Part shown: positions 4,849 through 7,815 of the stretch, piece by piece | Layout: each line of letters starts with the position of its first letter | Position numbering within the stretch: the first letter of the stretch is position 1 | NCBI GenBank assembly: GCA_041665625.1 | Contig: JBAYIK010000001.1 | Span: forward strand, 134,587-194,340 | Length of the DNA stretch: 59,754 bases | From: Minisyncoccota bacterium | GTDB lineage: Bacteria; Patescibacteriota; Minisyncoccia; Phycocordibacterales; XYD1-FULL-46-19 | Direction of reading: 5' to 3' | The notes under the pieces: model-generated | The model's database searches: none | The model's input: the letters and a program-made list of their open reading frames with translations, nothing else | Told to the model about the DNA's origin: nothing | Program-made: the position numbers and the translations under genes

Positions 4849-7815
4849 ATGGAAAACAAATCTAAGGCTCCTAAATATGAGCACGCAAAAATAGAAAGTA
4901 AATGGCAGAAGGTCTGGGCCAAAAATAAAACTTATGAGACCAAAGAGGGTGGCAAGAAGCCTAAAGCCTATGTTCTCGATATGTTCCCTTATCCATCTGG
5001 CGACGGGCTCCATGTGGGGCATCCCAAAGGCTATATCGCGACCGATATCTACTCCCGGTTCAAAAGGATGAACGGTTTTAATGTCCTACACCCTATGGGT
5101 TGGGACGCTTTTGGTCTACCCGCTGAGAATTATGCTATTAAGAATAAGATCAACCCAGAAATTGCTGTCAAAAAAAATATAAAATATTTCAAATCGCAAG
5201 TCGAGAAAATTGGTTTCGACTATGACTGGTCACGCGAAGTTAACACGACTGACCCCGGTTTCTACAAATGGACTCAATGGATTTTCCTTCAACTTTATAA
5301 AAAAGGCTTAGCTTTTGAGTCGTCTGAACCAATCAATTGGTGTCCATCGTGCAAGACCGGCCTAGCCAATGAAGATCTAGAAAATGGAAAATGCGAACGC
5401 TGCGGTTCAGAAGTAGAAAAGAAGCCAATTCGTCAGTGGGTACTCAAAATTACTGATTATGCTGAGCGCTTGCTCTCCGATCTTGAGGCTCTTAATTGGC
5501 CCGAGTCTATAAAAGAATCTCAGCGTAACTGGATTGGCAAAAGTGAAGGCTCCGAAATTTCTTTCCCGGTTAAAACTAAATATAAATATGTCCTTCTTCA
5601 TGGTTGGAAGAGTGATTCTAAGAGTTGCTTCATCCCATGGCTCAAACGTGAGCTTGAAGCTGAGGGCCACGAAGTGGTAGCACTTGATATGCCTCATCCA
5701 CTTATCCCTGACGTAGTAGAACAAGCCGACTATGTTCTCTCTAAGGTTAAATTTGACGAGAACACTATTTTGCTAGGGCATTCCCTTGGTTCTGTTGTCT
5801 CTTACCGCATCTTAGAGAAGTTAAAAACGCCCATCCACAAATTAATTTTAGTCGCTGGTTTGATTGAACCTAAATTCCGTGATCATGACCGGCTAATGGC
5901 AAAATACTTAATGAGTTGGAAATTTGATTTTGAAAAAATCAAAAAGAATGTCGGGGAAATAGTCATAATCGAAGACAACAATGACGTGATCATTCCTGAC
6001 GGAGAATCAGCGGTTATCCAACGAGCCTTAGGTGGCCTTACTTATCGTCTAGAAGCCGAGAAGCCTCATTTTTGTGGAATGGTTGAACCAATTGTTCTTG
6101 AACATTGTTTAGATAAAATAAAAGTCTTCACCACCCGAGCTGATACTTTGTTTGGGGCAACCTATCTAGTAGTGGCACCGGAGCACCCTCTAATTGAGAG
6201 ATTATCCCCTCAAATTACCAATATCAAAGAAGTCCAAGCGTACGTCGCAAAAACTATTAAAAGAACGGAAATTGAGCGCACTGCCGAAGGAAAAGAGAAA
6301 ACCGGGATAGAGATTCTTGGTTTAACCGCTATTAACCCTACCAATGGTCAAGAAATTCCTATCTGGGTGGCAGATTATGTCTTGCCTGACTACGGGACAG
6401 GGGCCATTATGGCGGTACCCGCTCATGACGAACGTGACCATCAATTTGCCAAGAAATTCAAACTACCAATTATCCAAGTAATTGGAGAAGATTTGCCGAC
6501 CAGATTAGAAAATTGGGGTGGGGCCTATGCCGGTTATGGCAAATTAGTTAACTCCGGTAAATTTACTGGGATGGAAAGTGTCAAAGCTAAAGAAGCCATT
6601 ACTAAAATGGTTCGCGGGAAAATTGTCACTAAATATAAACTACGCGACTGGGTCTTTTCTCGACAACGCTATTGGGGTGAACCAATCCCCATAATTCATT
6701 GCCCTAAATGTGGCCCAGTGCCCGTTCCTGAGAAAGATTTGCCCGTAATTCTGCCCAAAGTAAAGAGTTATGAACCAACCGGGACAGGGGAGTCACCGCT
6801 AGCCGCAATTTCTAAGTGGGTCAATGTGAAGTGCCCAACTTGTGGGGAGAAAGCTAAGAGAGAGACAAACACTATGCCTCAGTGGGCCGGTTCATCTTGG
6901 TACTACCTACGTTATATCGATCCTAAAAATACTAAAGCCCTTATTGATAAGAAAAAAGAAAAATACTGGTCACCCGTCGATATGTATGTTGGAGGGACCG
7001 AGCACGCAACACGACATTTAATTTACGCGCGCTTCTGGCACAAATTCTTGTTCGATATTGGTGCCGTCAGCCAAACTGAGCCCTTTACCCAGCTAAAAAA
7101 TCAGGGGATGATACTAGGTTCTGATAATCGCAAAATGAGTAAGCGCTGGGGTAATGTTGTTAATCCCGATGATATCGTCCGAGATTATGGCGCTGATACT
7201 TTACGCGTCTATGAGATGTTTATGGGCCCCTTCGAACAAGGAGCTTCTTGGAGCTCCGATAATCTAATGGGAGCCAGACGCTTTGTGGAGAAAGTTTGGC
7301 GACTAGCAGGGAAAGTCTCAACCGGGCGAAGTCACGTCTTAGGAGGGCCAGATAAGAGGCTCGAGACCTTACTTCATAAAACAATTAAACAGGCGACCAC
7401 CGACATTAATAACTTTAATTACAACACAGTTGTTTCGGCCTTAATGATATTAGCTAACGAATGGGAAAAGGCTGAGACAATCAACAAAGAAGATTGGCTA
7501 ACTTTCCTCAAGTTACTAGCTCCCTTGGCCCCTCATATGACCGAAGAATTGTGGTCCAGTTTAGGGCAAAAAGGGTCTATTCACCTTGCCGCTTGGCCAG
7601 TCTGGGACGAAAGCAAGCTAATTAGCGACACGGTTTCCCTGGTGATCCAAATAAATGGTAAGACCAGAGAAACAATAATTATCCCAACTAATCTCTCAGA
7701 AAAAGAGGCCGTAAAAATGGCTCTAGATAACGATATTGTGAAGAAGTGGGTCGGTGTCGAGCCCCTCAAAAAAATTATCTATATCCCTAATCGTTTGCTC
7801 AATTTAGTTATCTAA
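4849..7815 (+). CDS. leuS: leucyl-tRNA synthetase with inserted alpha/beta-hydrolase domain
   Basis: HIGH-type motif LHVGHP, KMSKS-type KMSKR, CP1 motifs [14 protein letters not shown] and [15 protein letters not shown]; ORF track starts at TTG 4843, ATG 4849 preferred. Confidence 0.95.
   Translation: [988 protein letters not shown]
5581..6114 (+). other. alpha/beta serine-hydrolase-like domain inserted within LeuRS
   Basis: [15 protein letters not shown] (GxSxG; Ser codon 5782-5784), [17 protein letters not shown]; lies between [13 protein letters not shown] and [11 protein letters not shown], which are about ten residues apart in ordinary bacterial LeuRS. Confidence 0.7.

What the first reader, a model, noticed from the sequence alone, without database searches (positions are those of the whole stretch)
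5581..6114. Apparently intact alpha/beta serine hydrolase domain inserted at the CP1 hinge of LeuRS
Seen: LeuRS reads normally to [18 protein letters not shown]. About 178 extra residues follow (YKYVLLHGW ... GHSLGS ... [10 protein letters not shown] ... EKPHFCG ... EHCLD) before the canonical CP1 entry strand [26 protein letters not shown]. In ordinary bacterial LeuRS these segments are about ten residues apart. The insert shows alpha/beta-hydrolase order (HG oxyanion turn, GxSxG, acidic residue, His) and recalls small YdeN/RBBP9-type serine hydrolases. CP1 editing motifs (TTRxDT, [15 protein letters not shown]) are retained. There are no intein-like junctions. Inference: an esterase grafted next to the editing site could be a second deacylase for mischarged tRNA or a moonlighting activity. 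The insert accounts for the 988-aa length.
Basis: partly seen in the sequence, partly recalled or inferred. Interest (0 to 1): 0.75.

Follow-up and report, generated by a model that had tools for sequence, protein, structure and literature searches.

The report
Serine hydrolase nested inside LeuRS editing domain
The leucyl-tRNA synthetase gene in this window really does carry a complete, apparently active small serine hydrolase inside its proofreading domain, an arrangement that recurs across many ultra-small (Patescibacteria) bacteria, appears undescribed, and may add an extra hydrolytic step to leucine charging.

Summary
Observation confirmed. ORF 4843-7815 (+) is a bacterial-type LeuRS, 990 aa from TTG or 988 from ATG. 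Residues 247-424 (nt 5581-6114) are a whole YdeN/RBBP9-family serine hydrolase: Pfam PF06821 scores above cut-off, and the AlphaFold model (pLDDT 90.5) matches YdeN at TM 0.89. The HG turn, Ser314, Asp381 and His409 are intact.

It is not an assembly artefact. Six independent MAGs carry the same insert at the same site, and 49 of the listed hits to the insert in a 1.8-billion-protein search are LeuRS-like.

The insert replaces a 2-residue turn at the tip of the first beta-hairpin inside CP1, not the hinge. That point is 5 residues before the Thr-rich editing motif, which is retained.

The same hydrolase clade sits at three different LeuRS sites. When free-standing, its gene is next to or near leuS in 8 of 10 informative cases. 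Two of those leuS genes are archaeal-type, one in a cluster with a YbaK-like deacylase.

Rarer insertions occur in ValRS, AlaRS, TsaD, EngA and SecA. The same LeuRS loops host NUDIX, GNAT, HAD and nuclease-like domains in other lineages.

Most likely it is a LeuRS-coupled aminoacyl hydrolase, a serine-based accessory proofreading or clean-up activity. The substrate is inferred, not shown. I found no paper describing it.

The parts
4843..7815 (+). leuS ORF, 990 aa from TTG (ATG at 4849 gives 988), stop included. Bacterial-type LeuRS without the leucine-specific domain.
   Evidence: (TIGR00396, 1029.8 bits)
4843..5580 (+). LeuRS aa 1-246: first half of the catalytic domain (HVGH at 5011-5022), the Cys4 ZN1 motif (5341-5406), and the first beta-strand of CP1 ([13 protein letters not shown]).
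5581..6114 (+). Inserted YdeN/RBBP9-type serine hydrolase domain, aa 247-424. It corresponds to a whole free-standing protein, minus about 8 N-terminal residues.
   Evidence: pLDDT 90.5; TM 0.89 to 1uxo
5599..5604 (+). His253-Gly254, the HG oxyanion-hole turn. H is present in 92% and G in 90% of 55 embedded copies.
5776..5790 (+). GHSLG nucleophile elbow. The catalytic Ser314 is at 5782-5784 and is present in 100% of 55 embedded copies.
5866..5898 (+). Clade-specific loop [11 protein letters not shown] (aa 342-352). It lies where RBBP9 has its substrate-binding loop (Tyr99-Glu108). Its middle (aa 347-349) is a gap in about 58% of free-standing family members, and it has the lowest pLDDT in the model. 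It is a candidate specificity lid.
   Evidence: RBBP9 residues from PMC8866121
5983..5985 (+). Asp381, the triad acid (Asp 61% and Glu 27% in embedded copies; Asp 96% in free-standing copies).
6067..6069 (+). His409, the triad base (100% of embedded copies).
6115..6147 (+). [11 protein letters not shown]: the second strand of the CP1 hairpin running into the Thr-rich editing motif. Thr430, Thr431 and Thr435 align to T. thermophilus T247, T248 and T252.
6394..6438 (+). [15 protein letters not shown] editing motif. Asp532 aligns to T. thermophilus D347.
6115..7815 (+). Rest of LeuRS: CP1 body, ZN2 region (6697-6846), second catalytic half with KMSKR (7132-7146), anticodon-binding domain and C-terminal domain.

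Best explanation
The insert is a complete, catalytically competent serine hydrolase of the YdeN/RBBP9 family (PF06821). It is nested in-frame at the tip of the first beta-hairpin of the LeuRS CP1 editing domain, joined by linkers of 3 residues or fewer, 5 residues upstream of the Thr-rich editing motif. It is a conserved, vertically inherited and purifying-selected part of LeuRS in a clade of Patescibacteria (Ca. Vogelbacteria / Paceibacterota). It is one instance of a widespread association between this hydrolase clade and LeuRS. These points are shown.

Inferred mechanism: the domain works together with LeuRS as an accessory aminoacyl hydrolase. Ser314 attacks the carbonyl of an aminoacyl group that has a free alpha-amine and a hydrophobic side chain, forms an acyl-enzyme, and water releases the amino acid. 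The most likely substrates are wrong products made on LeuRS: a mis-acylated tRNA(Leu) 3' end or a non-cognate aminoacyl-adenylate. On that reading it is a third, serine-based clean-up site beside the synthetic site and the metal-free CP1 site, which is itself still intact.
For: Identity and fold:
- PF06821 scores above its cut-off.
- phmmer hits YdeN at 2.6e-14 and RBBP9 at 6e-9.
- The AF2 model has pLDDT 90.5 and pTM 0.88. Foldseek top hits are 1uxo (TM 0.89, rmsd 2.0) and RBBP9 7oex (TM 0.85).

Active site: HG, Ser, Asp and His are invariant in A1. Across 55 embedded copies Ser is 100%, His 100% and Asp/Glu 88%.

Not an artefact: the same insert sits at the same site in L007, L008, L009, L010, L011 and L042, from separate studies.

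Selection: dN in the insert is about that of the host or lower (0.086 vs 0.100 against L007; 0.203 vs 0.330 against L010), with dS saturated.

Coupling to LeuRS:
- Of the 161 hydrolase relatives collected are LeuRS-like (one is a ValRS).
- The domain occupies three separate LeuRS sites, A, B and C.
- L011's insert is only 36% identical to the window's, while the hosts are 65% identical. This points to an independent insertion or a replacement at the same site.
- Free-standing close relatives lie directly upstream of leuS in 6 cases (P0001, P0002, P0017, P0028, P0055, P0067) and within the same gene cluster in 2 more (P0035, P0020). That is 8 of 10 informative contexts.
- Two of these leuS genes are archaeal-type.
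- In L091 the cluster is hydrolase, hydrolase, YbaK-like tRNA_edit, Ham1, leuS.
- A distant family member, P0006, is not linked to leuS.
- No true N-terminal fusions were seen even though the gene sits directly upstream. The hits that begin with the hydrolase continue at LeuRS position ~250, so they are truncated site-A proteins. This suggests that position near CP1 matters.

[quoted passage not shown] It is also reported as a valacyclovir-activating enzyme, valacyclovir being a valyl ester of a nucleoside analogue (reference cited in PMC7730578).

One hint: in L001 the hydrolase is a separate upstream gene, and that LeuRS has lost the Thr-rich motif. Its CP1 is 34% identical to the window's, against 80-88% for the flanking catalytic parts.
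Against: - No biochemical data exist, and no coordinates were available, so the distance and orientation of Ser314 relative to the CP1 pocket or the tRNA 3' end are unknown.
- CP1 motifs are intact in the window and in nearly all hydrolase-bearing LeuRSs, so there is no obvious unmet editing need.
- The same hydrolase clade is also inserted in SecA, TsaD, EngA, AlaRS and ValRS, and is fused to adenylate kinase, a methyltransferase, a peptidase S51 and an inositol monophosphatase. This argues for a more general or LeuRS-independent role.
- The same LeuRS loops accept unrelated domains: NUDIX, DUF559, PDDEXK_3, Y1_Tnp, GNAT and HAD. The site may simply tolerate insertions.
- RBBP9's alpha-amine anchors (Ser76, Glu108) are not conserved by alignment.
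- L013, a close relative at 82% identity, lacks the insert, so it is dispensable in at least one lineage.
Confidence: 0.45

Rival explanations
1. The hydrolase is an insertion-prone passenger enzyme. It is a small, self-folding housekeeping enzyme, for example a general esterase or N-terminal aminopeptidase, and its gene has repeatedly become embedded in surface loops of large essential proteins in streamlined Patescibacteria genomes. LeuRS only provides expression and retention, and the enzyme's substrate has nothing to do with leucylation.
For: - The same clade is embedded in SecA (P0042), TsaD (P0051), EngA (P0063), AlaRS (P0094) and ValRS (P0041). It is fused to ADK, a methyltransferase, a peptidase S51 and an IMPase.
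- LeuRS sites A and B also host NUDIX, DUF559, PDDEXK_3, IS200-like Y1_Tnp, GNAT and HAD domains.
- L013 lost the insert, or never had it, without other change.
- CP1 editing motifs remain intact.
Against: - LeuRS is the host for 48 of the 161 collected relatives (49 LeuRS-like matches, one of them a ValRS); the other host families appear once each among those scanned.
- There are three different insertion sites, all in or beside CP1.
- Free-standing genes are linked to leuS in 8 of 10 contexts, including archaeal-type leuS and a cluster with a YbaK-like deacylase.
- No simple N-terminal read-through fusions occur despite the upstream adjacency.
Confidence: 0.25
2. The hydrolase detoxifies a small molecule at the enzyme. 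It would destroy a reactive or inhibitory aminoacyl compound associated with LeuRS rather than a tRNA-bound product. Candidates are homocysteine thiolactone made by class Ia editing, or aminoacyl-nucleotide antibiotics that mimic leucyl-adenylate. On this reading it works alongside the NUDIX, Ham1, GNAT and HAD partners.
For: - NUDIX, GNAT and HAD domains co-occur with the hydrolase in the same LeuRS (P0027, P0053, P0039, P0099, P0046, L042).
- Ham1 sits in the L091 cluster.
- The other human valacyclovir hydrolase, BPHL, is an efficient homocysteine thiolactonase (PMC4198189, abstract).
- NCBIfam already recognises an IleRS with a GNAT domain (NF040702).
- From my own knowledge, not tested here: MccF (a serine peptidase) and MccE (a GNAT) detoxify aminoacyl-nucleotide antibiotics, and agrocin 84 targets LeuRS (PMC5059758, listed).
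Against: - A diffusible substrate does not require insertion at a fixed place in CP1 with rigid, 3-residue-or-shorter linkers.
- There is no sequence relation to MccF or BPHL.
- MetRS and IleRS, the main thiolactone producers, were not seen as hosts among the listed hits that were scanned.
Confidence: 0.15
3. The hydrolase is an aminopeptidase that supplies leucine. Like RBBP9, the domain would remove N-terminal hydrophobic residues from peptides, providing leucine to an organism that cannot make amino acids.
For: RBBP9 is an aminopeptidase that releases hydrophobic N-terminal residues (PMC8866121). One relative is fused to a peptidase S51 (P0133).
Against: - The insertion sites cluster at the editing domain, not at the synthetic site.
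- Free amino acid would diffuse away, so fusion gives little benefit.
- The cluster with a YbaK-like deacylase points to tRNA editing rather than nutrition.
Confidence: 0.07
4. The insert is an assembly chimera, an intein or mobile element, or a decaying relic with no function.
For: The insert equals a whole free-standing ORF. Nuclease- and transposase-like domains occur at the same site in other LeuRSs.
Against: - The same in-frame insert occurs in six independent MAGs, with co-divergence of insert and host.
- The triad is 100% conserved and dN is no higher than in the host.
- There is no Cys/Ser/Thr at the N-junction and no His-Asn at the C-junction (junctions KTK|YKY and CLD|KIK).
- There are no flanking direct or inverted repeats beyond chance.
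- There is no GC anomaly.
Confidence: 0.01

Closest known systems
B. subtilis YdeN (PDB 1UXO) and human RBBP9 (PDB 2QS9, 7OEX): Pfam Ser_hydrolase PF06821
   Same: The minimal ~180-aa alpha/beta hydrolase fold is the same (TM 0.89 and 0.85). So are the HG turn, the GxSxG nucleophile, Asp and His, in the same order.
   Different: - Those proteins are free-standing. Here the domain is embedded in-frame in another enzyme.
- The LeuRS-associated clade has its own signatures: E-Q instead of x-W at aa 293-294, Glu415, and an extra loop EPKFRDxxR.
- RBBP9's alpha-amine anchors are not conserved by alignment.
Canonical bacterial LeuRS with a CP1 editing domain (T. thermophilus 1H3N/2BYT, E. coli 4AQ7)
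   Same: The HIGH and KMSKS motifs, the ZN1 motif, the CP1 Thr-rich motif and the GTG...HDxRD motif, and the anticodon-binding and C-terminal domains are all present.
   Different: 178 residues replace a 2-residue hairpin turn (Tt 240-241), and the leucine-specific domain is absent. A recent survey of domain insertions found the LeuRS editing domain only as an insert, never as a host (PMC13114784). Here it is a host.
ProRS INS editing domain and its free-standing homologues YbaK/ProXp (PF04073)
   Same: The logic is the same: a hydrolytic domain exists both embedded in a synthetase and as a free-standing gene next to it. A YbaK-like gene sits in one of the hydrolase-leuS clusters.
   Different: The fold and chemistry are unrelated. 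The YbaK fold has no Ser-His-Asp triad. ProRS INS function is demonstrated, whereas this one is inferred.
Class Ia synthetases with an extra enzyme domain, e.g. NCBIfam NF040702 'isoleucine--tRNA ligase, N-acetyltransferase domain-containing'
   Same: This is a precedent for a small-molecule enzyme domain built into a class Ia synthetase. GNAT-bearing LeuRS was also seen here (P0099).
   Different: The domain family is different, and so is the host and the position.
Valacyclovir hydrolase BPHL and the MccF-type serine hydrolases of aminoacyl-nucleotide antibiotics
   Same: These are serine hydrolases acting on alpha-aminoacyl esters, thioesters or amides. BPHL is a homocysteine thiolactonase (PMC4198189).
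   Different: No detectable sequence relationship was found. They are free-standing. The analogy is chemical only, and the MccF part rests on my own knowledge.

Membership tests
Ser_hydrolase / YdeN-RBBP9 family (Pfam PF06821) | Profile HMM score above the curated gathering threshold | tested here: met
   36.0 bits for the insert alone and 31.2 bits in the full protein, against a cut-off of 22
Ser_hydrolase / YdeN-RBBP9 family (Pfam PF06821) | Minimal alpha/beta hydrolase fold of about 180 residues | tested here: met
   AF2 pLDDT 90.5 and pTM 0.88. Foldseek matches 1uxo at TM 0.89/0.85 with rmsd 2.0 A, and RBBP9 at TM 0.85.
Ser_hydrolase / YdeN-RBBP9 family (Pfam PF06821) | Ser-Asp-His triad and HG oxyanion turn in the canonical order | tested here: met
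   H253-G254, S314, D381 and H409 are invariant in A1. They align to RBBP9 S75 and D138 (numbering from PMC8866121).
Ser_hydrolase / YdeN-RBBP9 family (Pfam PF06821) | Hydrolase activity (fluorophosphonate labelling, ester or amide cleavage) | not testable with these tools
   Requires protein and assays
Bacterial-type leucyl-tRNA synthetase (TIGR00396) | Equivalog HMM score above cut-off, plus HIGH and KMSKS motifs | tested here: met
   1029.8 bits against 548.4. HVGH is at aa 57-60 and KMSKR at aa 764-768.
Bacterial-type leucyl-tRNA synthetase (TIGR00396) | CP1 editing motifs: the Thr-rich TTRxDT and the conserved Asp of HDxRD | tested here: met
   FTTRADT at aa 429-435 and [15 protein letters not shown] at aa 518-532, aligned to Tt T247/T248/T252 and D347
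Intein / protein-splicing element | Cys/Ser/Thr as the first insert residue, His-Asn at the insert's end, and Cys/Ser/Thr as the first residue after it; Hint-domain similarity | tested here: not met
   The junctions are KTK|YKY and HCLD|KIK. No Hint or intein Pfam hit was found.
Known aminoacyl-tRNA trans-editing families (YbaK/ProX PF04073, AlaX/tRNA_SAD, DTD) | Sequence or fold membership | tested here: not met
   Pfam and NCBIfam scans of the insert list only alpha/beta hydrolase families. The fold search returns only alpha/beta hydrolases.
Transposable or homing insertion | Target-site duplication, terminal inverted repeats or an encoded nuclease/transposase | tested here: not met
   Only short, imperfect repeats that do not lie at the junctions. 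No nuclease domain is present in the insert.

The most novel reading that the evidence does not exclude
The embedded hydrolase is a real third catalytic site of LeuRS. It takes the aminoacyl group from the tRNA(Leu) 3' end (or from the adenylate) onto Ser314 as a covalent acyl-enzyme. That would be the first serine-hydrolase-based proofreading or aminoacyl-transfer chemistry in an aminoacyl-tRNA synthetase. It could back up or even replace CP1 editing, as the L001 lineage hints: there CP1 has lost its Thr-rich motif while the hydrolase is kept as a separate gene beside leuS.
Probability: 0.25. Interest if true: 0.85.

Novelty: new variant of a known kind. Interest (0 to 1): 0.7.

Why it matters
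Synthetase proofreading is thought to rely on a small set of editing folds: CP1, INS/YbaK, the AlaX/ThrRS editing domain, the PheRS B3/B4 domain and DTD. A conserved Ser-His-Asp hydrolase wired into the LeuRS editing domain across many Patescibacteria would add a new module to translational quality control in organisms with minimal genomes. The same hydrolase is genetically linked to both bacterial- and archaeal-type leuS.

It would also give the orphan YdeN/RBBP9 family a physiological context. RBBP9's natural substrates are still unknown.

The wider pattern seen here is that CP1 loops host NUDIX, GNAT, HAD and nuclease-like domains. This contradicts the view that the LeuRS editing domain is only ever an insert and never a host. 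It makes LeuRS a natural system for studying nested domain insertion.

The hypothesis can be tested directly with one recombinant protein and an S314A mutant.

Tried and rejected
- Assembly artefact: rejected. Six other MAGs carry the same insert at the same site, and many database proteins share the architecture.
- Intein: rejected on junction residues and the absence of a Hint domain.
- Mobile-element footprint: the repeat search around the junctions found only short, imperfect matches away from the borders.
- Foreign composition: none.
- dN/dS: dS is saturated in all pairs, so only dN could be compared between insert and host.
- 'Hydrolase replaces a dead CP1': rejected as a general rule. 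CP1 motifs are intact in the window and in nearly all carriers. Only L001 and L077 have a degenerate CP1.
- N-terminal fusions: the apparent examples (P0014, P0038, P0046, P0061 and others) continue at LeuRS position ~250. They are therefore truncated site-A proteins, not fusions of the upstream gene.
- The first word-indexed homologue search with the insert returned only free-standing proteins and briefly suggested the fusion was unique. The exhaustive search corrected this.
- Rfam and tRNA scans of the window found nothing.
- Literature searches for LeuRS with hydrolase or NUDIX inserts in CPR/Patescibacteria found no description. A search on 'YdeN' returned only noise.
- Inter-domain geometry: the two-domain AF2 model (pTM 0.80) gives no coordinates here, so the distance from Ser314 to the CP1 pocket could not be measured.

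
Full report
**1. The observation**

The window has one long ORF at 4843..7815 (+), 990 aa from TTG, or 988 aa from the ATG two codons later. It is a bacterial-type LeuRS: NCBIfam TIGR00396 scores 1029.8 bits against a cut-off of 548.4. It carries HVGH, KMSKR, the anticodon-binding domain and the CP1 editing domain.

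Aligned to T. thermophilus LeuRS, residues 11-246 match chain residues 3-239 and residues 425-760 match 242-580. So residues 247-424 (nt 5581-6114) are extra and replace a 2-residue turn. The coordinates and the quoted peptides of the finding are exact. GC content is the same in the insert and in the flanks.

**2. What the insert is**

- The insert alone scores above Pfam's cut-off for Ser_hydrolase PF06821 (36 bits against 22).
- It finds B. subtilis YdeN (1uxo, E 2.6e-14) and human RBBP9 (E 6e-9) by sequence.
- An AlphaFold2 model built from 13 sequences is confident (pLDDT 90.5, pTM 0.88).
- Its best structural matches in the PDB are YdeN (TM 0.89, rmsd 2.0 A) and RBBP9 (TM 0.85). Larger alpha/beta hydrolases follow well behind.
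- H253-G254, S314 (in GHSLG), D381 and H409 are invariant in the alignment with free-standing relatives.
- In 55 synthetase-embedded copies Ser and His are 100% conserved and the acid is Asp or Glu in 88%.
- The insert equals a whole free-standing protein, from about its ninth residue to its C-terminus.

**3. Exact position**

The insert is not at the CP1 hinge. It is inside the editing domain, at the tip of its first beta-hairpin, between [13 protein letters not shown] and [11 protein letters not shown]. That is 5 residues before Thr430/Thr431, which align to Tt T247/T248.

A model of the 387-residue hydrolase-plus-CP1 module (pLDDT 82, pTM 0.80) shows the host strands running into the first strand of the hydrolase and out of its last helix, with linkers of 3 residues or fewer. 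No coordinates were available, so I could not measure how Ser314 faces the editing pocket.

**4. Not an artefact, intein or mobile element**

- Six independent metagenome-assembled genomes carry the same domain at the same place. They are L007 Ca. Vogelbacteria (LeuRS 84% identical), L008, L009, L010, L011 and L042 Ca. Kaiserbacteria.
- The LeuRS tree and the hydrolase tree agree for the window's clade: L009, L010, L008, L007 and the window.
- dN in the insert is equal to or lower than in the rest of LeuRS, while dS is saturated.
- The junction residues (KTK|YKY, CLD|KIK) exclude an intein.
- No meaningful repeats flank the insert.

**5. How widespread it is**

An exhaustive phmmer search of 1.84 billion cluster representatives gave 1240 hits at E <= 1e-3 and 240 at E <= 1e-10. 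Of the 161 relatives collected are LeuRS-like.

Mapping onto an insert-free LeuRS shows three insertion sites:
- Site A is the window's hairpin and holds the majority of cases.
- Site B is a CP1 surface loop, at window aa ~553.
- Site C is just after CP1, in the second zinc-motif region, at window aa ~623.
- One ValRS also carries the domain (P0041).

L011's insert is only 36% identical to the window's although the hosts are 65% identical. The same site has therefore been filled more than once, or the domain has been replaced. PGAP names such proteins inconsistently, as 'alpha/beta fold hydrolase, partial' or 'class I tRNA ligase family protein'. I found no paper describing them. A 2026 survey of domain insertions reports the LeuRS editing domain exclusively as an insert, never as a host (PMC13114784).

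**6. Genetic linkage of the free-standing form to leuS**

The closest free-standing relative, P0001 (74% identical), lies 48 nt upstream of leuS in a contig syntenic with the window.

| Context | Proteins |
|---|---|
| Directly upstream of bacterial-type leuS | P0001, P0002, P0017, P0028, P0055 |
| Abutting an archaeal-type leuS | P0067 |
| 1.3 kb upstream of leuS | P0035 |
| In the cluster hydrolase, hydrolase, YbaK-like tRNA_edit, Ham1, archaeal-type leuS | P0020 |
| Not linked to leuS | P0019, P0073 |
| Uninformative | P0034 |
| Distant family member used as a control, not linked | P0006 |

That makes 8 of 10 informative contexts linked to leuS, across two non-orthologous LeuRS types.

No true N-terminal fusion was found, although the gene sits directly upstream. 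The hits that begin with the hydrolase continue at LeuRS position ~250, so they are truncated site-A proteins.

**7. Relation to CP1 editing**

The Thr-rich motif and GTG...HDxRD are intact in the window and in nearly all carriers. The hydrolase is therefore an addition, not a replacement.

There is one exception. In L001 the hydrolase is a separate gene, and that LeuRS has lost the Thr-rich motif. Its CP1 is only 34% identical to the window's, while its catalytic parts are 80-88% identical.

L013, at 82% identity and inside the window's clade, lacks the insert cleanly and has the hairpin turn GKPDQ instead.

**8. Evidence that complicates a LeuRS-specific reading**

- The same hydrolase clade is also embedded in SecA, TsaD, EngA and AlaRS. 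It is fused to adenylate kinase, a methyltransferase, a peptidase S51 and an inositol monophosphatase.
- LeuRS sites A and B host other domains in other Patescibacteria. These are NUDIX (very common at site B), DUF559, PDDEXK_3, an IS200-like Y1_Tnp domain, GNAT and HAD.
- These loops are therefore tolerant of insertion, and the domain is prone to being inserted.

**9. Mechanism**

Shown: the fold, the intact triad, conservation, purifying selection, the position, recurrence and linkage to leuS.

From the literature: RBBP9, in the same Pfam family, forms acyl-enzymes with Leu/Ile, Met, Phe, Tyr and Trp. [quoted passage not shown] It is also reported to activate valacyclovir, a valyl ester of a nucleoside analogue (reference cited in PMC7730578).

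Inferred: the LeuRS-embedded domain is an aminoacyl hydrolase working with LeuRS. It most likely acts on mis-acylated tRNA(Leu) or on non-cognate adenylate.

Confidence by level:
- About 0.95 that it is an active-type YdeN/RBBP9 hydrolase and a true part of LeuRS.
- About 0.7 that its function is coupled to LeuRS.
- About 0.45 for the aminoacyl-tRNA/adenylate clean-up mechanism.

Rivals:
- Passenger enzyme in a permissive loop (0.25).
- Small-molecule detoxification, of homocysteine thiolactone or aminoacyl-nucleotide inhibitors, together with NUDIX, Ham1, GNAT or HAD partners (0.15). BPHL is the precedent (PMC4198189).
- Leucine-supplying aminopeptidase (0.07).
- Artefact or relic (0.01).

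**10. Comparison, novelty and verdict**

Both components belong to known families, and the membership tests are met for PF06821 and TIGR00396. The closest analogy in logic is the ProRS INS/YbaK pair. The combination appears undescribed: a Ser-His-Asp hydrolase nested in CP1, with a free-standing form beside leuS. I rate it a new variant of a known kind, namely synthetases with accessory hydrolytic domains, with interest 0.7. The finding is real, widespread and directly testable, but its function is still inferred.

Noticed in passing
L004:5533-8406 (and L005); L050, L054-L061, L068, L073-L075, L077-L081, L083, L085, L086: Many Patescibacteria LeuRS genes carry a ~140-aa NUDIX domain inside CP1 at a second site (window aa ~553). 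A few have NUDIX at the window's site A (L040) or further upstream at ref ~217 (L054). Some carry both hydrolase and NUDIX (L042, P0027, P0053, P0039, P0114).
   Followed up: partly
L037:4688-5155, L049:1130-1603, L029:205-732; protein P0064 aa 269-374: Nuclease- or transposase-type domains are inserted in-frame at the same CP1 hairpin tip in other LeuRS genes. They are DUF559 (L037, L049), PDDEXK_3 (L029) and an IS200-like Y1_Tnp domain (P0064). This hints that selfish elements also use this site.
   Followed up: partly
L001:6607-9060 and L077 (LeuRS): These two LeuRS genes have a strongly diverged CP1, 33-34% identical to the window's against 75-88% in the catalytic parts. The Thr-rich motif is lost (VYDSIPQT, TFSAHFEA). 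L001 keeps the hydrolase as a separate upstream gene; L077 has a NUDIX insert.
   Followed up: partly
L091:3501-7549: A gene cluster contains two tandem YdeN-like hydrolases, a YbaK/EbsC-like tRNA_edit protein, a Ham1/RdgB-like NTP pyrophosphatase and an archaeal-type LeuRS.
   Followed up: partly
proteins P0042, P0051, P0063, P0094, P0041, P0102, P0120, P0133, P0137: The same hydrolase clade is embedded in SecA, TsaD, EngA/Der, AlaRS and ValRS. It is fused to adenylate kinase, a methyltransferase, a peptidase S51 and an inositol monophosphatase.
   Followed up: partly
L013:5102-5401: The closest insert-free relative of the window's LeuRS has instead a ~75-aa insert of unknown type at CP1 site B. 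Its only match is a weak PARP-like Pfam hit (E 0.0018).
   Followed up: no
window 7123-7131 (between aa 760 and 765): The window's LeuRS lacks the ~57-residue leucine-specific domain of T. thermophilus LeuRS (chain residues 581-637 have no counterpart).
   Followed up: no
window 4435-4842: The intergenic region upstream of leuS is 408 nt, which is long. In the syntenic contig L001 the corresponding interval holds a 157-aa minus-strand gene and the free-standing hydrolase gene. No remnant of either was detected in the window by tblastn, and there was no Rfam hit such as a T-box.
   Followed up: partly
window 1-59754: No tRNA gene and no Rfam family reached threshold anywhere in the 59.7-kb window.
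   Followed up: no
L083:4531-5208, L086:5126-5914: The NUDIX inserts in these two LeuRS genes are followed by an extra Cys/His-rich extension of about 60-100 residues of unknown nature.
   Followed up: no
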